Notes: generated from the letters alone by a model not told the origin. Counted from the stretch's first letter, positions 17,614-61,338 are shown. The stretch is 64,000 nt of DNA from Diplonema japonicum (GCA_964019335.1 OZ025751.1:186001-250000); one strand, 5' to 3'. Translations and numbers: made by a program.

Positions 17614-18333
17614 TTATCGGATGGACACAGCAAGCATCCATCCAAGAAAGAAGTAGAACAATGCAATGGGGTAAACTGCTAACATCCGCCGTTTAGGGGG
17701 GATGGTTCCCGCTATAAATCCAAGAGAAGCTGTAATGGGGGGTTTCTTTTACTTTTTATTATTCCCAAGTAGCATACCCCAGCAAGCCCAGTACCAACAC
17801 AGACCCACGAGAAGGACTTTGATCTGCCAAATCTCTCTTATAGGGACAGGGGAGATTAAAATCGCCCCGCAAACATTCAACGGAAACAGACAATATCCAA
17901 GGGTGCAAAGACACTGGAAGAACGAAATTTTACCACCGAGGAACTTTGCGTTAAATGTGACGACAACAGAGCCTACAGCAATAATCATACACACGGCCGC
18001 AAAGAGGACGGAGGAATCAGTGCTCAGGTTGTCACTGTGGAAGGTCAAGATTCTGTGTAAAAAAGCTTCTTTTTTTTTTTCCCTTCCATTGACCCTCATA
18101 CATTGCCAACACCACACACAGAAGTAACGGCCCCCAAAGATCCCAGTCTTTCAATTCATTAACATCTGGAGCAGGCCCAACACACGGCATGGCGACCATC
18201 TTTATCTTTCTGCCTATCGATCTTGCATCTCGCATCTGTTTTTTTTTTCTTTTTTTTTTTTTTTTTTTCCCTCAACACATACAACAGTATCCCATATTGG
18301 TTCGTCTATTGTTGAAGAAGCTGGTGTGGACAT
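17614..18333 (-). CDS. YIPF6: Yip1-domain Golgi protein (YIPF6-like), 4 exons
   Basis: STIDEPIWDTVMRD..., ELKDWDLWGPLLLC, LGGKISFFQCLCTLGYCLFPL and RRMLAVYPIALFYF after 3 GT-AG introns. Confidence 0.9.
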
Positions 18334-18457
18334 TTTAAATTACTTTTCTTTCTCCACTCCCCCCCTCCCCCCTCTGAAGTAGTATGCTGTGCAGTACACA
18401 GTAGTATGATAACATGAGTATGTGAACCCTTATGCAGCTTGGGGGGGGGGGGGGGGA

Positions 18458-19024
18458 TTATTCAGTAAGGTTAAAACCTTGTTTTCTTGAAGCCTTGGGG
18501 TCTGTGTTCTCTACTGACCCATGCCATTGCTTTTTGATTCTGAGTGGCATCTTACCAAGACCCATGTTGCTCCAGTAGTAAATACCATCAGACACAAGAC
18601 CATGCTCATCTGAGGCCTCATGAGTGAAGTGGCCCATAGGGGAGGGTTTTTTAGATTGCTCCTTTCGTGAACGTTTCTTTGCTTCATGGATCTGTTGGTT
18701 GCGATGGGCCATCTGTGAGTAGTATGCTTTTCGCTTTTCTTTCAGCTCCTCTTCTGCTTTCTTCTCTGCTTCAGTCTTCACCTGCTGTTCGTTCCCTTCA
18801 TCATCTGATTCACGTGTTATTTCTTGACATATCACTTCTTCCTCCCCACCAACAACCACTGGCTTATTTATCACAGCAAATGGCAACACTGTCTCACTTT
18901 CTCCCTCACTCTGGCTCTCCACTTCTAACTTCCTCTTTTTTGCACTCTTCTTTTTGGATTTTTTTTTGCTAACTGGCTTTTCCTCTTCCTCCTCTCCAAT
19001 GTAGTTGCCTTCTGTGTCATACAT
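18458..19024 (-). CDS. hypothetical charged protein (188 aa) at the edge of the repeat island, possibly TE-derived
   Basis: Open ORF, but in CpG-poor DNA contiguous with the TE island. Confidence 0.45.
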   Translation of the reverse strand: MYDTEGNYIGEEEEEKPVSKKKSKKKSAKKRKLEVESQSEGESETVLPFAVINKPVVVGGEEEVICQEITRESDDEGNEQQVKTEAEKKAEEELKEKRKAYYSQMAHRNQQIHEAKKRSRKEQSKKPSPMGHFTHEASDEHGLVSDGIYYWSNMGLGKMPLRIKKQWHGSVENTDPKASRKQGFNLTE

Positions 19025-20249
19025 TTTCTTTTATAAAAGGGGTCTCTTACTATTTTGGGTTTTTGTTTTCAAAAAGGCAAGAAATAACAAAATAATAATA
19101 AATGTGTTAAGTGGAATTTGGTAGAGTTGCTCACCCCTAGTGGTGGGGCAAAGGGAAGACAAATTCAAGTCAAGAAAAGAACAGCACAGCTAATCATGCT
19201 AGTTTACTTTCTCATGTGTGAAATAAGAAGAGCACCATGTTCTTCCTACGTTTTACCAACAACCCCACCCAGAAAAAAAAGAAAGGACCTGCAAATGTGT
19301 GGCAGCAGTGATGGGTGAATCCTAATTAGGACTAGACTGGACTGGACCGGACCAGACCAGATCCAGTGTGAATTTCGACCCAATTATGCCAGACTGACCG
19401 GACTGACCAGACTGGACCAGACCAGACCAGACCGGACTGAACCAGACCAGACAAGATACAACCACAACACCACATCCCCCCTTTTTTTTGCTGCAGAGTT
19501 CAAACGTATAAACAGATGTCTACAAGAAAAGATGTTACACAGGTACTGAGAGACGACAACAACAACAACAACAACAAGAAACAAAAAAAAAAAAAAAAAA
19601 AGACTGGACCAGACTGGACTGGATCCAGTGTGAATTCCAACCCAATTATGCTGGACTGACCAGACTGACCAGACTGACCAGACTGGACCAGACTGGACCA
19701 GACTGGACTGGACTGGACCAGACCAGACTGGACTGAACCAGACTGGACAAGATACAACCACAACACCACATCCCCCCTTTTTTTTAAGATCACTGGATGC
19801 GATTCCATAGCCCTGCTGGAAGAAAAAAGAGGGAAGAGAAAGCAAAGGCAAGTGCAGAAGCACGGGAAAAGAAGATGCAGGCTAAGAAAAAGAAATGGAT
19901 AAACCCAAGGTGTCACAGCCACAGTCGCAATTGCAGTCACAGTCACAATCACAGTCACAGGTTCAGAGTTCACCATCTTCAGCTAAAGCCAAGGTAAAAG
20001 AAGAAGACGAAGTGGGGGGAAAAAAAAAAAGAAAAACAAACACTAGGTAAGCAATGTTATCAATGAAATGAGAGAACTTCCTGTTCTTGACAGGGTTTGC
20101 TTTTTGATCAGTCTGCATTGCCTACCTCTCATCCTGTGTGAAAGGAATTTTTTTCATAGCCTGTTTTCCCCTGGTAGCCTTGTGGGGATAGACAGGAAGA
20201 AAGTGCAGAGCTGCATTCTGGAATTGGGAGAGAGTGTCTTCCATTCCAT

Positions 20250-21590
20250 TTTGGAAGGCTTGTTGGCTGAGAATGTGTTCTTGATGGTTGATGGTGCTAC
20301 CTTCAACCATCGAACCATTCTTGGCTTCAGCCTTTCAGACAGTGAGCACAGCTATTTTTGCAAGGTCTGTTTTTTCAAAGTACAGAGTGTTAACAATATT
20401 ATTATCAGGTAAAATAAGTGCACAAACAGACAAAGTGCTGAACTAGTTTTCTTTTCCAACTGAGGGCAGTTTTCTAGGAGTGGGAAATCATCTGAAGGAC
20501 AAACACAACACAGATAATTGATCTCTCAAAGGTGAGAGCAACTGCTGCAGAGATCACAAAGTACATCACAGAGACAATCAATGAGCTTCAAACAGTTTGG
20601 GGGAGAAAGGGAAAGAAGGGGATAAAAAGGGAAGAAGCAGGAAAAAAAAAGAAAAAAAAGAGGGGAATCCTTGTTTTTTCTGTCTGTGCAGACAACACCA
20701 GTGCCATGCAGTGTGCACTTGAGAAGATCGCCAAGCAGTTTTGCTTGACCCAGACACTGTGGACACTGACACTGCAGCCACCAACACTGACACTGACACT
20801 GATTCAGGTATTCTTTGTGTTTTTTGTGGCCAGGAACAGACTCTCCATGTAGAGTTTGTTTTCATGTTATATTGATCTTTTTTTTTTTAAAAAGACACCC
20901 AGTCTACAACCGGGTTGATCTATTCATTTTCCAAGACTGAAAGCACTGTATTAGATTCTGCACTTGACAGTGCTGCTGAAGAGCTGCAGTTGAGTGGAGT
21001 GTTGGCCTACTGTTGTGGCCCACTCACTGCAGCTCTCACTGGGGGATGTTTTCAAAGTTCCTCGCTTTGAAAAGGTGCTATGCAAGGTGAAGGTATAAAA
21101 CGAAAAAAGGGAGGGGGAAAAGAAATAATATATATTGTTAAACTTGTCGTTTTGGTTTTTCACAAAAAGAAACAAAAAAAAAAAGAACTTGGTGAGGAAA
21201 TGGACAACACAAAGTGGTACCCTTGGACTGAGAAACATCCAGGAGGTTAATGGTGTTAGATCAAACGAAATCCACTTCATCAAGGCTTATGCAGAGACAA
21301 GATGGAATTCAATTGTTGAAACTATGATTTCCATTTCGTCCCTGTACCAATTCCTTGGTGAAGATGACATGGGTTTCCTGGCTGAATTGAACTTCACAAT
21401 CCATGTCTGTGCCCCTTTTGCAGACACCACATCTAGTGCTGATTCTGTCCTCAGCACCAGTTTAGCTTCTGAAGCCCCAACAGAGCACCATTTCAAAGTG
21501 GTTGCTAAAACTCTGCACAAATCAAGATGTAGACTTGATACAAAGGTTGTTAATGCTTGCCTGCAAATTGCAGTGAATTACCACTTTGTG
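20250..21590 (+). pseudogene. hAT transposase remnants
   Basis: Fragments LMVDGAT, SVCADNTSAM, AYAETRWNS and SEAPTEHHF...RCRLDTKVVN correspond to the hAT catalytic D, the D-N-A motif, TRWNS and the C-terminal dimerisation motif. Broken by stops and frameshifts. Confidence 0.75.
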
Positions 21591-21899
21591 AAGCCCCTGT
21601 TTTTTGAAGGGGAGCAAAAAGAGAAGCATAGCCATGCAAAACAGGCAGAGCATCATAGAGTTGAGGAAAGTGAGAGAGATCTGTTTACACAGACTTAGCT
21701 TCCTTTACACTACTTTTCCCATCACTCACATTTCCCCTAGTTGTGACTGTAAAATATAGCTATTTACTGCCAACAAGTAATGACTTTACCATTACTGGTA
21801 GGTAAGTGACTTCACCATGAGGGGCACAATGGGGTGACAAGGGGTAGCATGAAGTAATGAGATTTAGCATAAAGTAATGGGCCCCATGACATATTTTAC

Positions 21900-22260
21900 A
21901 CCATATTTCATAAACTGGATTGCAGAGTTCCTGAAGGATTGAGAGGCAGCTGTAGAATAGGTGGGGAACAGGTGACTTCTATGAAAAAGAAGAAGGAGTT
22001 CCACAAGGGACAGTCCTCTCCCCACTGCTTTTTATCTGCTATGTGGATGACATAGCAACAAGATTGCACAAAGTGGGTGTGGACACTGGACTGATTACAT
22101 CACTGTTTGCAGATAACATGGCTGTGGAGGCAAGGCACAAGTGCTGGACATGGTGTGTGGGTGGCCAGAGACATCACAATGCTGGAAGTAGCACACAACA
22201 CAGCAGCATGCATCATAACAGGCCTTCCTACAACACCCATCCTAAGACCTCCTGAAAATT
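21900..22260 (+). mobile_element. non-LTR retrotransposon (LINE, possibly ingi/I-like) reverse-transcriptase remnant
   Basis: WIAEFLKD*, GVPQGTVLSPLLFICYVDD (from 21995), SLFADN (decayed FADD) and HNTAACIITG (decayed AARIITG). Confidence 0.85.
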
Positions 22261-23015
22261 GCAAGGCTGAGGAACCTGGCTGAGCTGACCAGGCCTGGAG
22301 ATGGTACTCAAGCACTGCAAGACAACAGTGAAACCAGGGGCTAACATCCCCACCAGCTCACTTTTGGCCTTGCAAAAACTGAAACAAGGGCCAACAAGGC
22401 AGAGAGGACACAATGGTGGGAATCTGGACACAGCTGGGTGGCTAACAAAATAAAAGACCTAATATAAGGGTGTCTTTCATTCCTCCCTTTCCCCCCCTCC
22501 CTCATGCCTTTCTCCCCCCCCAAAAAAAGGGAGGTTAAAACCCAACTCACAGCCTTCACATGGCACCTCCTGTAAGTAAGCTTTTTTTTTTTTTTTTTTA
22601 AATACTGTAAAACAAATAATGTTGGACAGAAAAACTCCTGGACACCAAAAAAACCCAGACATTTTTCTGTCTGGGAGTTTTTCTGAAGAAGTTTTTTACT
22701 TAAGGGGGGGTAACAGCTCCCACCACATTTGCCTAGAAGGGCTTTATTCCTTGTGCAGAGCCAAAATGTTTACCCTGCGTGGCAGTTTGAATTTTTCTTC
22801 CCTTTTCAATGCACCAACAAACAGCACCCATGGGATCTTTAACTTCTCATAAACCCATACTTCTTTCATCAAATTAACCAGTTCAACTACCCAAGGCATG
22901 TTGCACAGCTGGCTTGTAAGCTGACACCAGTGATGGGTGAATCCTAATTAGGACTAGACTGGACTGGACCAGACCAGACTGGATCCAGTGTGAATTTCGA
23001 CCCAATTATGCTGGA

Positions 23016-23775
23016 TAGTGTCCAAAAAAAATTTTTTTCCACCAAAAAAAGTTGTCAAAGACACCCAAAAATTGATTTTTTTTCCAAAAAAAAATTTTTT
23101 TTCTCAAAAGTACCTATCCTAGGCCTTAATAGAGGCTTTTAGTGAAGTGGGGTGAAAGTGAGAAGTTTGGGGTCAAAAAAAGGTGCCCAAAAAAAAATAT
23201 TTTTCACATGAACAAGTGGTCAAAAACACCTGAAAAGTGGTTTTTTACCTCAGAAAAATTGATTTTTTTCTAAAAGGGTACCTATATCAGGCCTAATAGT
23301 GGTCTATCTGTTGGTTTTCTCTCCTTTATGACTTACCCTTCTCATTCTTTGTATTTACCCCCCTTTTTTTTACTGTACTTTATTGGGTGCATGGGGTGCT
23401 AGAAAAAAAAATAGTGTCCAAAAAATTGTTTTTCCTCCCAAAAAATGTGGCCAAAAACACCCTTAAATTGATTTTTTCTCAAAAAAAATTTTTTTTTCCC
23501 TCAAAAATACCTATTCTAGACCTCAATGAGGCTAATAGTGAAAGTGAGATGGTCATGGGTCAAAAAAAAAGGGCCTAAAGAATTTTTTTCCTCACAAAAA
23601 AAATTGTCAAAAACACCTGAATAGTGATATTTTACCTCAGAAAAAAAGATTTTTTTCACAAAGGGCACCTGTACTTGGCCTAGTAATGGTCCATCTGTCA
23701 TTTTTCTTTCCTTTATAACTTACCTTTCTCATTCTTTGTATTTCCCCCCCCTGTTTTTACTGTACTTTATTGGCA
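23016..23775. repeat. two tandem copies of a ~396-bp AT-rich unit
   Basis: TAGTGTCCAAAAAA starts at 23016 and 23412 with colinear downstream sequence; another fragment lies near 27000-27050. Confidence 0.85.
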
Positions 23776-25033
23776 GGTTGTTTTAAAAAATAACCTAACC
23801 CAACAAGAAACCCTAATAGAACCAGCAAATCTGTCAGAAAAGACTACCTGATAGCCTACCTTGGGTGGAAAGGGGGCATGGCTGGCAATATTGGGGTTGA
23901 AAGGTCCCAGGATTGAGGTGAAGAAGGTGCCACCACTGACACTTTGCTATTGTTGGCAAGCACTGGAGGTGAAGGAGATTGCAGCCAAGAGGAAAGACCA
24001 ACTGCTATTGCTGGGCAAGGAACCAAAAGAATGAAATAAATTCCACAAAAAAAATCAAGTAAGGGTAAAAGGTTTGAATACATAGGTTAAATGGGCTATT
24101 AAATTCTTTTTTGATTAAGTAACCACAGCTGGGTACTTTAATTTTCAACCCATTTTGGCAACACTGGGACTAAAAAGTTTTGAATAGGAGGATTTACTCT
24201 TTCTTTATTAGGTTTAAAAATTAAATAGGTTCAGAAAAAAACTAAAGAATAAATTCAAATGTGTGAAATTGTGTGTTTCCTGAAAAGTGAGTTATAAGGT
24301 GGTAGAATGATATAAATCTTAAATTTTCGGAAGAAAGTTGATTCCTTGAAGAAAAAAAAATTTGATTAGGTAACCACAGCTGGGAAACCTACTTCAAGGA
24401 GCATTTTGCTTATCATCACCCAAAATTAGGCCAAAATTCCAAAAATACCATTCTAAAATGAAGCTTGATTTTGTGATTTTCAGGTGGCCATTTAGACCCT
24501 AAGGAAAATTCCTAAAGTGATTTTTAAAAGATTTTTTTCAGTCCAAGTGGGGTCAAAACTTTCCATTGGCTGTTCAAAATTCCATTTTCAGGACCAAATT
24601 GGGTGTTCAAAAAAAAAAAAATTTTTTTTTTTACCCTCCCAGTGTTGTTATGAGAATGAGTTGCCCCCCTGAAATTTTTGGATTTTTACTTACTTTTTAC
24701 TTCAGAATATAGTTTAGAGATGTGTATTCCACCTAAACACCTTTCTGAACTTTTTGGTTTGCAGAAATGGGTTTTTAAGGTGTTTTAAATATAAATTTCA
24801 TGATTTCTGGCTTTTTCCAGAAAAAAAATTTTGGGGTCAAAAATGGCCAAAGTGACTCCAAGTTTGGGGTCCCCTGGGGAAAAAAAAAACATTTTTTGGC
24901 CAAAAATTTCCAAAAAAGTCTGTTTTGAGGGTGCTAAATGAGTGAGGGTCCCTAGAAAAAAAAATTTTTTTTTTGCCCCCCTGCCCCCCCAGCCCCCCCC
25001 CTGGGTTTTTTCCCGTAACAACACTGTTCCAAA

Positions 25034-26997
25034 GGTGGTGGGGATAGCATGAAAAAACATCAGATGTGTTGTTCACTGTTGACCTCCTCATTGGTCATCA
25101 ACGGTAGCTCCCGAGTGGAAGATCATAATGCAGATGCTCAGGGTGACAAACAGGCAGCAAACTGCACAAGCACCGAATCTTGGTTACCTGGGACACTCTG
25201 GCTGGGGTTGAGCTGTACACCACACACATTAAAGACATGACACAGAATGCAGAAGAAGCTACAACTCAGTTGCAGTGTGCCCCCTGTAATCAAGTAGACA
25301 GTTCTTGTGCAGGGTGCCACCAACACCGGCTTCTTTTAACTCATATATATATCATTCAGGTGGTGGAGATAACATGGAAATATAAGAAGTACATCAGATG
25401 TGTTGTTTGCTGTTGACCTCCATGTCAGTCATCACCAGTAGCACCCAAGTGGGAGAACATAATGCAGATGCTCAGGGTGATGAATTGGCAGCAAACTGCA
25501 TGAGCACAGAATGTTGGTTGCCCTGGGTTGTGTTGCTCTGGCTGGGGTTAAGCTGCACACTGCACACATTAAGGACACAATGCAGAACACAGAAGAAGCT
25601 ACAACTTGGCTGCAGTGCCCCCCTGTATCAAGTTAACAGTTCTTGTGTGGGTGCCACCAACATGATGAACAGGCATTTTCCTCCATCCACTTGGCCGGTC
25701 ATCACCTGTAGCACCCTGAGTGGAAGAACAAATTGCAGATGCTCAGGGTGAGTAAACTACTTAGGGCACCAGCTGGGGTTGAGCTGCACACCGCATGCAT
25801 TAAGGACACGACACGGAACGCAGAAGCGGCCAAGGTGCACCCCCTGTCACTGGTCTCCTTTACCTCTTTCATGTTATTTGGTGGTGGGGATTACAGAAAT
25901 ATGGAAATATAAGAAGTACATCAGATGTGTTGTTCACTGTTGACCTCCACGTCGGTCATCACTGGTAGCGCCTGAGTGGAGGAACGTATTGCAGATGCTC
26001 TGGTGTTGAGCTGCACACATTAAGGACACGACACGGAATATTGTGCTGTCAGTGTTGTGGTGATATAGTCACCACTTTCAACCTTGATGATGCAAAGAGG
26101 AAAAAAAAAAAAAAAAAAAAAGGTAAGGAATTCCCTGTTCCGCCAAGTTCTGGTTCCACTGGTTCCGCCGTTCCACCAAGCTCCGACTTTTCAGTTTGGC
26201 AGAAGGGAACGGAACGACCCACCCCTGCATGAGCAGAATCTGGTTACCCGGGACGCCCCGGCTGGGGTTGAGCTGAACACCGCACACATTAAGGACACGA
26301 CACGGAACGCAGAAGAAGCTGTGGTGTACCCCCTGTAATCAAGTAGTCTTGTGCAGGTCCTTTAACTCATATATCTCTCACCACGGCCGGGTTGTAGCTT
26401 CTTCTGCGTTCCACGTCGATCACCACAGCCGGGTTACATCCAAATACAACATTTCCGGACATATGTACATACCTGCAGCTGCAGTGCACTGGAGTAGATA
26501 GGTGCAAATGGCTTGATGGAGCTGTGCATGTCTGTGGTACAAAGAAGAAGAAGAAGAAAAGAAAAAAGGAAAAAAAAAAGGAAAAAAAATCATTGTCCAA
26601 AAATATTTGAAAAAAAAGTGTTTGCAGGTGTGTCAAAAATTGCAGAAAATTTTCGAGTCTGGTCAGTCCAGTTAGTCCGGCCGATCTGGTCAGTCTGGTC
26701 AGTCCAGTAAATTGGGTACACTGGACTGGACTGGATTCACCTATCACTGCCAGTAGTGCCCAAGTGGGAGAACATAATGCAGATGCTCAGGGTGATGAAT
26801 TGGCAGCAAACTGCATGAGCACAGAATGTTGGTTGGCTGCAGTGCCCCCCTGTATCAAGTTAACAGTTCTTGTGCAGGTGCCACGAACACGACGAATAGG
26901 CATTTTCCTCCATCCACTTGGCCAGTCATCACCTGTAGCACCCTGAGTGGAAGAACAAATTGCAGATGCTCAGGGTGAGTAAACTACTTAGGGCACA
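25034..26997 (-). mobile_element. cluster of decayed copies of a ~270-350 bp retroposon-like repeat
   Basis: Copies begin GGTGGTGG(G/A)GAT at about 25034, 25359 and 25880, with partial copies near 26230 and 26750; homologous to 61070-61338. Confidence 0.8.
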
Positions 26998-27654
26998 AAT
27001 TTTTTTTTCTCCAAAGTACCTATTCTAGGCCTTAATAGAGGCTTTTAGTGATAGCTTCTTGTATGGGTGCGAAAAACTAGAAACCATCGACTTGAATGTG
27101 ATGACCAATCTTTCTTCCATTGGCCAAACAAAACTGGAACACAGAACAAATTCCCCATGGGTTTGGACAAAACACAGAACAACATGGAACAAGGGGACAA
27201 GAAGGGGAACAGGACGGGAAGGAACAAGAGGGGCCAACAGGGGACAAGGTTGCTACTATAGTACTATGCACAAAATGCTGGCTGGGGCTTGCATTTTTTT
27301 GGTATTTTTGTTTCCCCCGGTCGTGAGAGGCCTATGGGTGCGGCACACCATGTCTGAAACGTTTAGCTCCCTTGAAGCTCAAACCAGTGTGCGAGTTTAG
27401 CCCATTTTATTTTGGCACGTTGGCGATGGCGGTAGTCGTTGCAAGAGCACCTATAGGAAGTATTGGAAGATAACAGTTAACGGTTTTTTTTTCTTTTTTG
27501 TGGTCGTGAAAAGTACTCTACAACCTGCTGGGGGGTGTCAAGCGCTGCTTTTTTGTTTTGTTTTGTTCTGTTTATACCTTCTTATTTCTTTCCTGATCAA
27601 AAAACTTCAAACACATTACCACAGCTTGAAAAAAAGAAAAGAAACCAAAACGAA

Positions 27655-29310
27655 ATGTTGACTCGAGTCCTGTTGTTTGTTGTGGTTGTTAGTGCGACTG
27701 AAGAGCTAGCACGGATCGGCAGCGTGGGCCCGCTGGAGGGGAAGACCTCTGCAGACCTGGCGAGGTCAGGGGACCACACATTCAGCGTGATGACGGATGA
27801 CACAGTGAGGATCACGAACGTGGCGGACAAGGCGAACCCTGTGGAGGTAGGGATTCTAAAGCACAGGAGCGGTCCGGCAGCCTCTGTGCTGACGGACGGG
27901 AACCTGCTATACGTGGCATACCTGCATGCGCTGGTTGTCTACAATCTGTACCCCAACCCCACTGCCCCAAGGGTCTTGCACACCTTCCTTCCCCCTCCCG
28001 ACGCCGACCTGAACTTCTGGCGTGGGATGACCCAGTCTGCCAACCACCTCTACGTGTCATACTTCCACAGCCCCACCACCACAGAGTCCCTGTACGTGCT
28101 TGCGAAGAAGAACCTGGTGCAGGTAGGGGTTTCAGTGTTGTCGACGACAGGCTCCTTCGTGCTGGACATGACCTACGCGGACAGGAAGGTGTACGCGACC
28201 ACAGAGCACCTCGCCCCCAAGGGGAGCGTCTCTGTGCTGGATGTGTCGGACCCCACGAACCCCCACGAGGAGTCTTCCTTCGCAACGCCGGACATCGACT
28301 TCAATAGGGTTGCCTTCCACGAGGGCTTCCTGTACATCAGCAGGGTCGACACCAACACAGACATGCCGCTGAAGGTGGACCCGTCGACAGGGGTCCCTGT
28401 GGCGATGACGATGCCTGCCTTCGTGCATGACTGTGGGGACATCCACTTCTACAACTCGAGGGTGTACCTTGCCTGCACTGACAACGGCCTCGTTGTGTTG
28501 GAGGAGACGGCGCCCAACAGCTTCACCCTCCTTGCAAGGGACGAGGCGAGGTTCCCCTTCACCATCCTGCCCAGCGGCGGCTACCTTTTTGTGAGCGACG
28601 CGACGGACAGGCTTGCGATCTACGACATCCCGGATGCGGCTGTGGAGCTCGTGGGAGGCATTGCACCTTTTGCGAAGCAGGCTGTGGAGGGAGACTCCTC
28701 TTCTGCTGTGGAGGACAAGGTGAGCGGGCAGTGCTGGGAGAGGATCCCCGAGTGGCTTGCAGGATCGACAGCGTACATGGGGGTTCACGGGGGCAAAGGG
28801 ATGTCCCTGAGATTGGCGTGTCCCGCGACCGACGACCACCAGCAGAGGGACAACAACAACCACTACAACGACCCCTGCACCTTCTACGTGACGCTGCACA
28901 ACTGCCTCCCGTGCAGTTCCTCTACCAACGGGGGCCTCCCGAAAGAGATGCTGGAGGCTGGCTTCGAGGCTGCGGGCTGTGGGCCGAGGTACGTCCCCAT
29001 CTTCCCCGGTGCTCCCGTCGAGGTCCGTAACCACCCGACCGCAATCTTCAAACTGCAGGTGGAGGCAGGTATGGAACCCATTGAGCTGCCCGTTTCCAGG
29101 GAGCTCCTCCACGTCGCGGTGTTCGTGCACTCCACTGGACAGCAGTGCTCCTTGAAGAACGCGAAAGAGTGCGCCGCAGCCTCCCTGGTGTGTGAATACG
29201 ACACGAAGAAGAGGGAATGCATGGACAAGCCGATGTGCCCCACGAGGACAGGCCCTCAACCCGGGCCACAGGGGCACAGGTGCATGTGCTTCGCCCTCCC
29301 GCTGTTCTGA
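27655..29310 (+). CDS. secreted LVIVD-repeat (beta-propeller-like) protein with a Cys-rich C-terminal domain
   Basis: Signal peptide MLTRVLLFVVVVSA; repeats RITNVADKANPVEVG, VVYNLYPNPTAP and SVLDVSDPTNP; intronless. Confidence 0.75.
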   Translation: MLTRVLLFVVVVSATEELARIGSVGPLEGKTSADLARSGDHTFSVMTDDTVRITNVADKANPVEVGILKHRSGPAASVLTDGNLLYVAYLHALVVYNLYPNPTAPRVLHTFLPPPDADLNFWRGMTQSANHLYVSYFHSPTTTESLYVLAKKNLVQVGVSVLSTTGSFVLDMTYADRKVYATTEHLAPKGSVSVLDVSDPTNPHEESSFATPDIDFNRVAFHEGFLYISRVDTNTDMPLKVDPSTGVPVAMTMPAFVHDCGDIHFYNSRVYLACTDNGLVVLEETAPNSFTLLARDEARFPFTILPSGGYLFVSDATDRLAIYDIPDAAVELVGGIAPFAKQAVEGDSSSAVEDKVSGQCWERIPEWLAGSTAYMGVHGGKGMSLRLACPATDDHQQRDNNNHYNDPCTFYVTLHNCLPCSSSTNGGLPKEMLEAGFEAAGCGPRYVPIFPGAPVEVRNHPTAIFKLQVEAGMEPIELPVSRELLHVAVFVHSTGQQCSLKNAKECAAASLVCEYDTKKRECMDKPMCPTRTGPQPGPQGHRCMCFALPLF

Positions 29311-41699: not shown

Positions 41700-44600
41700 A
41701 TGATGAAGTTCACAGCCCTTGTAGTGCTGTGTTTGTCTGTTGTTCTAAACGGGCAGACCTGTGGAAGCGGAGATAAGGTGGTGGACAGCTCATGCTGCAA
41801 CTGTGAACCAGGCTTTGCGCCCCCCGACTGCAAGAAGTGCATAGCAGGGTATTTGCTCGGCATAGACCCCACAACAGGGAAGGACAAGTGCTACAACGGA
41901 GTCACCGACTGCCATAACCTTCTCCCAGCACCATGGGGATGTGGCGGCAAAGGGAAGTGTGTGGCGTGCGCACCCGGCGTCGACCCCTGCTACCCCAAGT
42001 GCGAGTGCAACCCTGGCGTCACGGGCGACAAATGCGAAGGCCAAGCAACTTCGCAGTGTCTTCCAGAAAGCGTCCACATGTACACCGTCTACCCTCAAGA
42101 GCCTGTCTCGGACGAACTCTTCAACGTTATGCTGTGGGGCTGCAGTATCGATGGCTCCTCGCAGTACCAAGTGCTCCCAGAGGACGCGCCATGCGGCACC
42201 ACAGTTGACCCCCTCTGCACAGTGAAGGCAGGCGACATGCTTGAGATACGCCATGAAGATGCTGCGAGCCCCGCCGCTGTGGAGTGCAACACCTGTGGTG
42301 AATGTTCTTCCTCCGTAGCCTGGGAGCTCGTTGCATCGGACTCTTCCTGCAGCAACGGGACGACCGCCACCACACTCACCGCCGCCAGTCTCGCAGACTG
42401 CATGGCGCAATGTGAGACTTCTGCCACGTGCAGCTCCGTCAACTATGTTTGCAAGACTGGTGTCTGCATGCTATACGCTGCGGCATGCGCTCCTGTAGCC
42501 AGCACCACCGGGTCCGCTATGTGGAAGATCAAGGCCCTCCCCACCGCTGTCGCCACTGACGCTTCGAAGGGCTGCACTGTGTGCAATACCAACGCTGCTG
42601 GGTCGTCGGAGTGCCTCCAGACATACAACACGTATTGGAGGCCCATCTCCGTCGTCGCAGCTTGCGACGGGAAGGGAGGTGCCCTCCTCAGCACGGAACG
42701 CGACACGAAAGACTTGAACGCCTGCTTCGAACTGTGCGAATCGACTTCTGAGTGTCTTTCCGTGGACTGGTTCTGCCAGACAAAGAGCTGCATGCTGTAC
42801 GCGGCCCCGTGCGGTGCCCCGGGCACGGTGCACCACGGTTCCTCTTCTTACGAGCTGATGCCCACCCAGGCCACTGGGTCCTTGGAATGCTCGCAGTGCG
42901 GCGAATGCCCTGCTCAGCTGAAGCCCGGGCAGTCCGCTACCGCCATCAGTGTCACCGCTGCCTGCGACGGCAACGACGAGGGCGTCGGTTCGTACAAGGA
43001 ACCGAAGGTTGCAAGCCTCAGTGAGTGCATTACCGCTTGCAGCGCTGATGCCGAGTGCAAGGCTGTGGACTGGTTCTGCCAGGTGAGGACCTGCAAGCTT
43101 TACAAGAAAGCGTGCAACACCCCCAAGGCGACCTTCCATGGTGCCTCTTCGTTCACGGTATGCTACATTGCCACAGAGCAACACAACACAACACAACACA
43201 ACACAACACAACACAACACAACACAACACAACACAACACAACACAACACAACACAACACAACACAACACAACACAACACAGGTGTCAGGAAGCACCACCT
43301 CCCGAAGTGGTGTGGCGTTGGCCGGTGTGACAGACGCTGTGACACCGGGTGTCACATGCCACTCCAAGTCGAAGGCAACGGGGAACTGCTTCGACACGTT
43401 GAAGACCTTCGACGAGGCCAAGAACACCTGCGCCAGTGAGGGCCCGGGGTGGAGGTTGTGCTACATAGCAGAACTGCAGAGCGGTGTCTGCTGCAGCACA
43501 GGCTGCAACCAAAACACAAAGGTGGTGTGGACGTTGGACACGTACGGCGGCTCGACGGGGTATGCTACTGGGCTGGAGAACGCAAACGAAAAAAAAAAAA
43601 AAAAACCCCTACCACAGACGTTCGTGCCCCGCAATGGGCCAGTCGCACAAGGGATGCCCGACTACCGAGCAGAAGGGCAAGCCGTCATGCGGTGCTGTGT
43701 CCCACACGAAGGCTGTGGCCTGCTGCGACAAAACAGCAGCGATGTGCTACACCAGCAAGTCTGTGGGCGGGAAGGACGAATGCTTCGAGAAGTACGCAAC
43801 GCTGCAGGAGGCTACGAAGATCTGCACTGACGACGGGAAGCGTCTGTGCACCATGCAGGAGCTGGACAACGGGCTCTGCTGCGGCAGGGGCTGCAACATC
43901 GGATCCTCAGAAGTGTGGACCAGCCAGGACGCCCAACAGGCCTGCACCTCAGACGAACTGCAAGGCAAGTTCGCGAACCCCGCTGGGATGTACGACGGTT
44001 GCCAACAGACCAACGCTGCAAACGGTGTCAAAGAGCACCCTGAGCAGTGCAGAGAGGCGAAGAACGCTGCGGTATAAATAAATAACAAAAAAAAAAAAAA
44101 AACCCCTACCACCACACCATCAGGGCTCTGTGAGGTGTTGTTACGAGCCGCAGGCGGGCGACCCGACACCCGAACCGACACCAGCACCGAACAGCTGCAC
44201 GGGGACCACAGGACAGGTCGAGGGGTCTATTGTGAAAAACTCCCAAAAGGGGTGCTTCGTGATCTCATCGCGTAAAGACGACAGCTACTGGACGATGCAG
44301 GGAGGGAAGGTACTCGCGGGGAGCAAGCAAGGCGCAGGCACCGTCCGCTTCGTCACACCATTCACAAAGGGGACCGAGTCCTGCAGCGTGCTGCCAAAGT
44401 ACACAGTGCAGTCGCACCCGAACTACGCTATCGACACAGAGCCGTGCAGCGCAAGGACAGGTGCGACACCTTGCCCCACGTGCACTGCTTCTGTTGAGTC
44501 GTGTGACCAGCCTGGGTATGCTAACCCGCACCCAGAACATAACAAAAAAAATCCCCCCAACCACTACAGTTTGTTCCTGAAGCTTGACGAAGGGAAGGTG

Positions 44601-60893: not shown

Positions 60894-61069
60894 AATCGAT
60901 TTCAACAAACGTGTTTTTTTTTTTAAAATTTTTTTTTGATCGGCAACTAAAAAGTGTTTTTTTTTATTGTGGTTCTTGCGCTTGAAAAGAAAAAAAGAAC
61001 AAAAGAAAAAAATATATATATATAAAAAGATTATCGTCGGGATGTGTATTTTTCTTCTTTTTTTTTATA

Positions 61070-61338
61070 GGTGGTGGGGATAACATGGAAATATAAGAAG
61101 TACATCAGATGTGTTGTTCGCTGTTGACCTCCTCGTCGGTCATCACCGGTAGCGCCCGAGTGGAAGAACGTAACGCAGATGCTCAGGGTGACGAACAGGC
61201 AGCAAACTGCACGAGCGCAGAATCTTGGTTACCCGGGACGCCCCGGCTAGGGTTGAGCACACCGCATGCTTAAGGACACGACGCGGAACGCAGAAGAAGC
61301 TACTGCTCGGCCGTGGAGCGCCCCCTGTAATCAAGTAG
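61070..61338 (-). mobile_element. CpG-intact copy of the retroposon-like repeat
   Basis: Homologous to the 25-27 kb copies; on the minus strand it ends in an A-rich tail; possible AAATAC TSD. Confidence 0.75.

What the first reader, a model, noticed from the sequence alone, without database searches (positions are those of the whole stretch)
18370..27100. CpG-decayed transposon island with an unmutated internal control: evidence for targeted CpG methylation
Seen: the repeat at 61070-61338 is CpG-rich, while its copies at 25-27 kb differ largely by CG->TG/CA (CCTCGTCGGT vs CCTCATTGGT; ACACGACGCGGAACGCAG vs ACATGACACAGAATGCAG; CCCGGGACGCCCCGG vs CCTGGGACACTCTGG). The hAT subterminal pentamer occurs as GACCG, GACTG and GACCA. 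LINE motifs are broken by the same change (FLKDR to TGA stop, AARIITG to AACIITG). I can spot only a couple of CpGs in 23.0-25.0 kb, whereas flanking genes are CpG-rich. Established: this is the signature of 5mC deamination (or a RIP-like process), and trypanosomatids are not known for TE-silencing CpG methylation. Inference: a region-specific methylation/mutation genome-defence system in this lineage.
Basis: partly seen in the sequence, partly recalled or inferred. Interest (0 to 1): 0.8.

Follow-up and report, generated by a model that had tools for sequence, protein, structure and literature searches.

The report
CpG-erased transposon block in a diplonemid
In a marine flagellate (a diplonemid, not a trypanosome), a pile of old transposons between two outward-facing gene clusters, and the gene beside it, has lost about nine-tenths of its CG pairs to TG/CA changes while a copy of the same repeat among genes kept them, likely the scar of DNA methylation on that stretch, which the papers searched had only predicted for this group from its genes.

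Summary
From 18.0 to 25.8 kb there are 40 CpG against 336 expected (core 21.3-25.0 kb: 3 against 141). GpC, TpA and CNG are normal. Against the 61-kb copy, all 22 CpG sites are hit in at least one island copy, 17 of them as both TG and CA. Contigs from two other studies carry the CpG-poor sequence, so it is no assembly artefact.

All three diplonemids in a published table encode DNMT5, a CG methyltransferase elsewhere; the kinetoplastids listed do not.

Added here: the block lies in a divergent strand switch. Decay follows position, not sequence: it spills onto a single-copy 188-aa gene that lost its synonymous CpGs but kept Arg CGN codons. Classical RIP fails three tests. CpG-decayed repeat variants are about tenfold rarer in spliced-RNA-like runs (a hint only).

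Best reading: deamination of 5mC in a silent domain, likely DNMT5-maintained. 5mC itself and the enzyme in this genome were not testable. A known mechanism in a lineage where my searches found no methylation data.

The parts
18018..25792 (.). CpG-depleted domain (40 CpG vs 336 expected, o/e 0.12); core 21340-25010 has 3 vs 141
   Evidence: change-point fit; counts
18458..19024 (-). 188-aa K/E-rich ORF, first gene of the leftward cluster, inside the domain; synonymous CpGs lost, 5 Arg CGN codons kept; no homologue found
   Evidence: codon phase; single-copy-level depth, X6 contig 18545-19050; that contig starts at the G of an AG; no hits
19306..19322 (+). left terminal inverted repeat of a hAT-like element, followed by GACYG/GACCA arrays (19320-19460, 19600-19760)
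20053..21698 (+). decayed, apparently intron-interrupted hAT-like transposase with an internal deletion; EHHF where relatives have ERQF/ERHF; 0 of 8 Arg codons are CGN in 21186-21698
21902..22301 (+). LINE reverse-transcriptase fragment with stops and frameshifts
   Evidence: Pfam RVT_1 E 8e-8, 32.7 bits vs cut-off 29.6
22928..22944 (+). second copy of the left terminal inverted repeat
23015..25010 (.). AT-rich (33-36% GC) multi-copy repeats, ~390-bp duplication 23015-23386 / 23411-23773, nearly CpG-free; a second 11-nt inverted pair at 24640 and 25016-25026
25030..25665 (+). two long copies of the ~270-bp interspersed repeat; 19 of 22 and 20 of 21 CpG dinucleotides turned to TG or CA
25690..26360 (+). 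three partial copies at the right edge, less decayed (7 of 15, 6 of 11, 3 of 10)
26733..26749 (-). right terminal inverted repeat (16 of 17 match); no 8-bp target duplication with either left end
26750..27051 (+). recent 94-98% duplicates of 25435-25520, 25606-25769 and 23091-23145
27655..29310 (+). first gene of the rightward cluster, CpG-normal; marks the right side of the divergent strand switch
61069..61338 (+). control copy of the ~270-bp repeat inside the gene cluster, 22 CpG (o/e 1.04)

Best explanation
The 18.0-25.8 kb stretch is a nested transposon block in a divergent strand switch of a diplonemid genome whose CpGs have been replaced by TpG and CpA on both strands, likely because the stretch was kept CG-methylated as a silent domain, probably by a DNMT5 enzyme, and the 5-methylcytosines deaminated to thymine. 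Steps: (1) shown: hAT-like, LINE and short repeats piled up between the two outward-reading gene clusters. (2) Inferred: the block was methylated symmetrically at CpG. (3) Inferred from the gene content of other diplonemids: the maintainer is DNMT5; who writes the mark de novo is open. (4) Established chemistry: 5mC deaminates to T, giving TG or CA. (5) Shown: the loss depends on position. The same repeat keeps CpG 35 kb away among genes, decay fades towards the edges, and it reaches about 1.3 kb past the first transposon end into a single-copy gene, where selection kept only the CpGs that cannot change silently. (6) Hint only: decayed copies are under-represented in RNA-like runs.
For: CpG-only loss, with no CNG, TpA or 5'-base preference (TCG 8/28, GCG 17/46, ACG 17/40, CCG 14/44). 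22 of 22 CpG sites hit, 17 of 22 in both directions in different copies, which needs recurrent independent events on both strands. Estimated load 1.3 changes per CpG base against 4-7% at other C/G in the two long copies, 20- to 35-fold, bounds 8-128 (the 4% figure is hand-curated). ORF 19024-18458: CG share at codon positions 1-2 is 0.21 (11 control genes 0.22), at positions 2-3 0.00 (0.28) and at 3-1 0.03 (0.33); Fisher p 0.004. In 19817-21583, 8 of 9 listed A>G/T>C differences to the paralogue contigs restore a CpG (background 27%). Genome-wide, 11 of 15 listed C>T/G>A variants of the 270-bp family are at CpG (29% expected), mostly at 1-17% of depth in DNA runs (three are common, 35-66%), so heavy decay is the exception in this family. 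CpG-loss variants are rarer in RNA-like X11 than in same-sample X4 (median log2 -3.5, 11 rows, vs +0.15, 22 rows; p 0.002) and in X6 than X1 (-3.7 vs -0.7; p 0.02). DNMT5 in Sulcionema (2), Rhynchopus (2) and Hemistasia (1), DNMT1 in none, DNMT5 in 0 of 5 kinetoplastids. DNMT5 maintains CG methylation on TEs in Phaeodactylum and on centromeric repeats in Cryptococcus.
Against: No 5mC was measured. No genome was held, so no methyltransferase was sought in this species, and the published table has no Diplonema row. One island in one window. The paralogue test rests on 40 rows shown of 476; over 19.8-25.9 kb it is 9 of 13, none of 3 in the AT-rich part, and 3 of 5 rows in the flanking gene also 'restore' a CpG. 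Some families are CpG-poor in most copies, so not all loss happened in place. The edge gene is decayed yet covered by an RNA-like contig, so decay does not equal silence. 4 of the 11 CpG-loss rows show no RNA deficit in X11/X4 and 2 of the 22 other rows do; contig depth is a poor measure of expression, and X6 and X11 are RNA only by intron skipping. DNMT5 has no de novo activity in Cryptococcus. The mark may be past rather than present.
Confidence: 0.72

Rival explanations
1. An active, RIP-like mutator (a methyltransferase or deaminase turning CpG into TpG faster than spontaneous deamination) is aimed at this repeat block as genome defence.
For: The CpG excess may be 20- to 35-fold or more (bounds 8-128), above the ~10-fold I recall for mammals. 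hAT paralogues only ~2% diverged differ mostly at CpG. CpG-biased mutation of TEs is reported in basidiomycetes (PMC4352252).
Against: No CpA>TpA gain (TpA o/e unchanged) and no TpCpG preference. Linked duplicates are untouched: PARP pair (2456 aligned, 98.9%) CpG changes 2/294 and 4/296, GAMT 2/94 and 0/90, RPL21 0/54, though these may be young, converted or selected. DNMT4/RID absent in 3 of 3 diplonemids. A single-copy gene is hit. The lower bound of the ratio fits plain deamination.
Confidence: 0.1
2. Relic or inherited loss: the elements were CpG-poor before they arrived, or methylation ended long ago, so there is no present methylated domain.
For: Multi-copy contigs over the hAT body and the AT-rich repeat are nearly as CpG-poor as the window. 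The 26.75-27.05 kb pieces are copies of decayed sequence.
Against: A single-copy gene cannot inherit loss from an element. Island copies decayed independently at the same sites. The window's hAT copy has lost further CpGs against 2%-diverged paralogues. After a recent duplication the inner copy lacks 2 CpGs and carries a third CA change that the outer copy does not, against 1 the other way (25606/26833); the inner terminal array lacks 4 of 4 CpGs of the outer one. These counts are small.
Confidence: 0.12
3. Not methylation: base composition, selection against CpG, foreign DNA from a methylated host, or a sequencing/assembly artefact.
For: The 23-25 kb part is AT-rich (33-36% GC). No listed contig spans the whole stretch.
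Against: GpC normal, and AT-rich intergenic DNA keeps CpG. Contigs of studies P2 and P3 match CpG-poor window sequence: X4 18427-19332 with 0 differences, X6 18545-19050 with 0, X6 19756-20307 with 1 and one gap, X4 23606-23870 with 3; X2 bridges 18280-19326 across the first transposon end, but its study P1 may be the source. The repeat family is native: a CpG-rich copy lies among host genes.
Confidence: 0.04

Closest known systems
DNMT5-maintained CG methylation of transposons (Phaeodactylum tricornutum DNMT5a, PMC9998398; Cryptococcus neoformans centromeric repeats, via review PMC9246332; passages read)
   Same: CG-only, TE-centred, genes mostly spared; relatives of this organism have DNMT5 and no DNMT1.
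   Different: There 5mC and the enzyme's role were measured; here only the mutational scar is seen. Here the block sits between co-directional gene clusters of a trans-splicing organism, and decay spreads onto a cluster-head gene.
Repressive 5mC in other discobans: Naegleria gruberi (PMC12344493 section 7, read whole) and Euglena gracilis viral inserts (10.1101/2025.04.23.650285, passages)
   Same: Methylation concentrated on repeats or foreign DNA in the same supergroup.
   Different: Naegleria uses DNMT1 and methylates all four dinucleotides alike; here the loss is CpG-specific. Euglena has DNMT1 plus DNMT5 and appears broadly methylated.
CpG-biased C-to-T decay of fungal TEs and RIP (PMC4352252, passages)
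   Same: Same substitution type in TE copies; the authors ascribe the CpG form to methylation followed by deamination.
   Different: No CpA or TpCpG target, no RID in the diplonemids listed, gene duplicates spared.
Trypanosoma cruzi centromeric strand-switch domains (PMC1868937, abstract and passages)
   Same: 8-16 kb of degenerate elements between gene clusters that read outwards.
   Different: Those are GC-rich and retroelement-dominated, in a lineage without DNMT5 (no 5mC found in Leishmania, PMC7463849); this block is about 40% GC, CpG-stripped and includes DNA transposons. Centromere function is untested here.
5mC pathway predicted for Diplonema papillatum (PMC10161547, passages and supplement rows)
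   Same: Same family; gene clusters separated by TE-rich repeats; DNA methyltransferase homologues noted.
   Different: The main text has no CpG analysis ('CpG' 0 occurrences) and no methylation measurement. Its Additional file 1, section 8 (5mC and J) could not be read and may say more.

Membership tests
DNMT5-type CG methylation of TE domains | CpG-specific and symmetric on both strands | tested here: met
   C-N-G o/e 1.0, TpA unchanged; 17 of 22 sites show both TG and CA
DNMT5-type CG methylation of TE domains | 5mC present on the DNA | not testable with these tools
   only contigs were served
DNMT5-type CG methylation of TE domains | intact DNMT5 (MTase plus SNF2) in this genome | not testable with these tools
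   no genome held; present in 3 of 3 other diplonemids by a published table
DNMT5-type CG methylation of TE domains | confined to TE-rich regions, genes largely spared | tested here: met
   11 of 11 control genes keep synonymous CpG; one edge gene is affected; one window only
DNMT5-type CG methylation of TE domains | marked copies are transcriptionally silent | tested here: inconclusive
   decayed variants ~10-fold rarer in RNA-like contigs, but depth is a poor measure and the edge gene is covered by an RNA-like contig
DNMT5-type CG methylation of TE domains | overlap with H3K9me/H3K27me heterochromatin | not testable with these tools
   no chromatin data
Periodic nucleosome-linker methylation by DNMT5 (algal type) | genome-wide periodic pattern restricted to linkers | tested here: not met
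   loss is local and near-complete (o/e 0.02 over 3.7 kb); a crude spectrum gave no consistent 170-200 bp peak
RIP (Neurospora/ascomycete type) | CpA>TpA bias | tested here: not met
   TpA o/e 0.51 vs 0.48-0.51; CpA raised, not lowered
RIP (Neurospora/ascomycete type) | acts on linked duplications whatever their sequence | tested here: not met
   PARP, GAMT and RPL21 duplicates show no CpG or CpA excess; youth or selection could hide it
RIP (Neurospora/ascomycete type) | RID/DNMT4 gene | not testable with these tools
   absent in 3 of 3 other diplonemids; this genome not searched
Microbotryum-type TpCpG hypermutation | preference for TCG | tested here: not met
   TCG 8/28, GCG 17/46, ACG 17/40, CCG 14/44
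hAT DNA transposon | transposase with DDE, CxxH and RWNS motifs and C-terminal dimerisation domain | tested here: inconclusive
   window fragments align to P0123/P0124 (E 7e-13 to 1e-4); those hit Dimer_Tnp_hAT (E 0.005) and DUF659 below the Pfam cut-offs; motif names are recalled; window fragments alone give no hAT hit
hAT DNA transposon | terminal inverted repeats | tested here: met
   17-nt repeat at 19306 and 22928, inverted at 26733-26749
hAT DNA transposon | 8-bp target-site duplication | tested here: not met
   flanks of neither left end match the right flank; the block is rearranged
LINE (non-LTR) retrotransposon | reverse-transcriptase domain | tested here: met
   RVT_1 E 8e-8; clade not tested
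Trypanosome-type centromeric strand-switch domain | degenerate elements between divergent gene clusters | tested here: met
   9 annotated ORFs on - to the left, 17 on + to the right
Trypanosome-type centromeric strand-switch domain | GC-rich (T. cruzi type) | tested here: not met
   40-42% GC vs 47-49% in the flanks
Trypanosome-type centromeric strand-switch domain | mitotic stability, Topo-II cleavage, kinetochore binding | not testable with these tools
   needs experiments

The most novel reading that the evidence does not exclude
The block is a diplonemid centromere: a DNMT5-methylated, transposon-filled divergent strand switch that joins the trypanosome centromere position to the Cryptococcus centromeric 5mC mark. 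The deepest CpG trough on each chromosome would then map diplonemid centromeres from sequence alone.
Probability: 0.13. Interest if true: 0.8.

Novelty: new member of a known kind. Interest (0 to 1): 0.5.

Why it matters
[quoted passage not shown] They transcribe genes in long clusters like trypanosomes, which show no 5mC in Leishmania (PMC7463849). A positional CpG scar says this sister lineage likely kept working CG methylation with DNMT5 and without DNMT1, and aimed it at the DNA between clusters. That can be tested at once with one methylome, and CpG troughs become a free map of silent domains and centromere candidates. The edge gene shows the cost: methylation spreading onto a working gene.

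Tried and rejected
No genome was held, so there was no DNMT search and no genome-wide CpG scan. Trypanosomatid origin rejected. CHG, CpA, TpA-loss and TCG-specific processes rejected. Homologue searches for the 188-aa ORF found nothing (0 of 549 candidates at E<=1; no usable Atlas hit; Pfam only a sub-cut-off EFTUD2 N-terminal match), so its status as a gene rests on codon phase and an RNA-like contig. A word-indexed search with the transposase fragment found nothing among longer proteins; the HMMER search found 2. The 270-bp repeat has no Rfam match at gathering score and only chance matches at E<=1; the window has no tRNA; its identity is open. No target-site duplication found. Low X6 depth over 19.8-20.6 and 23.8-24.6 kb is not used as evidence. 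Periodicity test uninformative beyond excluding a clear linker pattern. Literature: ten searches found no diplonemid methylome or CpG analysis. The library lacks most subscription papers, Additional file 1 of PMC10161547 was unreadable, and preprint supplements were not seen. The notes index had nothing on CpG or methyltransferases in this genome.


Full report
1. The observation. CpG o/e per kb falls to 0.00-0.28 between 18 and 26 kb, against 0.75 and 0.82 in the flanks. Change points lie at 18,018 (18,000-18,354) and 25,792, with a deeper step at 21,340. The domain has 40 CpG against 336 expected, and the core 21,340-25,010 has 3 against 141. GpC (0.89), TpA (0.51) and C-N-G (1.0) are normal, TpG and CpA are raised (1.29, 1.23), and 8 of 8 AT-rich intergenic controls keep 0.56-1.04.

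2. The spectrum. With the 61-kb copy as reference, 7 island copies show C>T/G>A at 67 of 188 CpG bases and 21 of 438 other C/G bases; reverse TpG>CpG changes are 6 of 148. Every one of 22 CpG sites is hit in some copy, and 17 show TG in one copy and CA in another, so the events are recurrent and on both strands. The two long copies lost 19 of 22 and 20 of 21 CpGs; three partial copies further out lost 7 of 15, 6 of 11 and 3 of 10. No 5' base is preferred. The excess over other C>T changes is 20- to 35-fold with wide bounds (8-128). The control is not pristine: it has itself lost the CpG at 61,267.

3. It is real DNA. Of 16 listed runs I laid 5, all contigs. Study P1 may be the source of the assembly, so I count P2 and P3: X4 matches 18,427-19,332 and X6 matches 18,545-19,050 with no difference, X6 19,756-20,307 with one, X4 23,606-23,870 with three. 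No listed contig spans the whole block. Paralogue contigs often carry CpG where the window has TG/CA: 8 of 9 listed A>G/T>C rows in 19,817-21,583, 9 of 13 over 19.8-25.9 kb, against 27% background. Only 40 of 476 rows were shown, 0 of 3 rows in the AT-rich part fit, and 3 of 5 rows in the flanking gene fit too. The hAT body and AT-rich repeat are CpG-poor in most copies as well, so part of the loss is inherited.

4. The organism. The GAMT gene is 78% identical to Diplonema ambulator, 73% to Rhynchopus euleeides and 69% to D. papillatum, and groups with D. ambulator and one unnamed protein at 96/95 support in a one-gene tree of 21 chosen rows out of 120 listed hits. Genes have GT-AG introns that single contigs of X6 and X11 skip. 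This is a diplonemid, as unreviewed notes on other pieces of this genome also say.

5. Anatomy. Nine annotated ORFs left of the block read leftwards and 17 to the right read rightwards, so the 8.6 kb between 19,024 and 27,655 is a divergent strand switch. It holds a hAT-like element (17-nt inverted ends at 19,306, 22,928 and 26,733-26,749, no target duplication; transposase remnants aligning to two unnamed proteins with sub-cut-off hAT Pfam hits), a LINE RT fragment, AT-rich repeats and at least seven pieces of a ~270-bp high-copy repeat of unknown kind. D. papillatum likewise has gene clusters separated by TE-rich regions (PMC10161547, passages).

6. Position, not sequence. Depletion starts about 1.3 kb left of the first transposon end and covers the 188-aa ORF at 19,024-18,458. 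This ORF has single-copy-level depth in DNA runs and an X6 contig that begins at the G of an AG with 24 unlaid letters, as the X6 contig of a downstream gene does with 20. That pattern fits a spliced leader, but I did not see the letters. Five of its 6 CpGs are Arg CGN codons. The CG share at codon positions 1-2 equals that of 11 control genes (0.21 vs 0.22), while positions where a silent change is possible fell to 0.00 and 0.03 (controls 0.28, 0.33). The dead transposase kept no CGN (0 of 8 Arg). This is what purifying selection under local CpG hypermutation gives. No homologue of the ORF was found, which limits the claim.

7. A hint of silence. For the 270-bp family, all 33 variant rows listed at 8% or more were used. 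Eleven are CpG losses, and their share is about tenfold lower in RNA-like X11 than in X4, DNA of the same sample (median log2 -3.5 vs +0.15 for the other 22; p 0.002); X6 against X1 agrees (p 0.02). Four of the 11 show no deficit in X11/X4, two of the 22 do, and contig depth is a poor measure of expression. Nor does it tell cause from effect: untranscribed DNA may attract the mark.

8. Mechanism and writer. Symmetric, context-free CpG loss is the expected result of 5mC deamination (established; PMC9246332, passages). Supplementary Table 1 of PMC12344493 lists DNMT5 in Sulcionema (2), Rhynchopus (2) and Hemistasia (1), DNMT1 and DNMT4 in none of them, DNMT3 only in Hemistasia, and no DNMT5 in five kinetoplastids; no Diplonema is listed. 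DNMT5 maintains CG methylation on TEs in a diatom (PMC9998398, passages) and on centromeric repeats in Cryptococcus. DNMT6 and DNMT2, expanded in diplonemids (PMC10161547 supplement rows), are held to be RNA enzymes; DNMT6 gives no 5mC in Leishmania (PMC7463849, passages). So DNMT5 is the likely maintainer; I could not check this genome. RIP fails on dinucleotide, on the spared gene duplicates and on the missing RID in relatives, but an accelerated CpG mutator is not excluded by the rate estimate.

9. Known and new. TE-directed 5mC and its CpG scar are well known, also in Naegleria (section 7 read whole), Euglena (passages) and fungi (PMC4352252, passages). A further preprint (10.1101/2023.01.30.526367, passages) does not mention diplonemids. 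For diplonemids, ten searches found only the gene-based prediction; that paper's Additional file 1, section 8 could not be read and may hold more. What this window adds is sequence evidence that the pathway has acted, that it is CG-specific and positional, that it sits at a divergent strand switch, and that it spreads onto a gene. T. cruzi centromeres lie in similar but GC-rich strand switches (PMC1868937, abstract and passages). That makes a centromere worth testing but unlikely for any one switch, since those authors expect only one such domain per chromosome; that diplonemid centromeres are unmapped is my recall plus one empty search.

10. Verdict. Observation confirmed with corrected borders; interpretation partly supported; new member of a known kind; interest 0.5.

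Noticed in passing
window:17600-18333 (-): Intron-containing gene that looks like a Yip1/YIPF6 family member by recalled motifs; it straddles the left border of the CpG domain. Pfam gave no hit on one 44-aa exon, and the other two frames scanned were probably wrong.
   Followed up: partly
window:61069-61410 and 25030-26990: A ~270-bp repeat with summed DNA depth thousands of times the single-copy level, also abundant in RNA-like runs; possibly a SINE- or SIDER-like element in UTRs. No Rfam or tRNA match.
   Followed up: partly
window:27048-27123 and 27310-27400: Another very deep repeat at the right edge; many contigs join 27123 back to 27054-27056, which suggests tandem arrays elsewhere in the genome.
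   Followed up: no
window:29800-36718 (+): Tandem pair (98.6% alike) of 894/922-aa proteins with two PARP-catalytic-domain matches and a weak cold-shock-domain match.
   Followed up: no
window:38797-41170 (+): Tandem guanidinoacetate N-methyltransferase genes (creatine synthesis, a diplonemid gain in PMC10161547); relatives also in Perkinsus and Amoebophrya.
   Followed up: partly
window:20053-21698 (+): The hAT-like transposase appears to carry spliceosomal introns and an in-frame deletion of ~130 aa shared with about six near-identical copies, i.e. an amplified non-autonomous derivative.
   Followed up: partly
window:58824-60893 (+): One EHD-family gene spread over several poly-A-rich introns; single contigs of X6 and X11 join its exons.
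   Followed up: partly
window:6444-6790 and 43172-43285: Long simple repeats (a 10-nt purine unit; a 5-nt unit inside a PAN-domain gene).
   Followed up: no
other pieces of this genome (note e1-10630253): An unreviewed note describes an AlkB-carrying retrotransposon; if this host methylates TEs, that domain could be a counter-measure. Untested.
   Followed up: no
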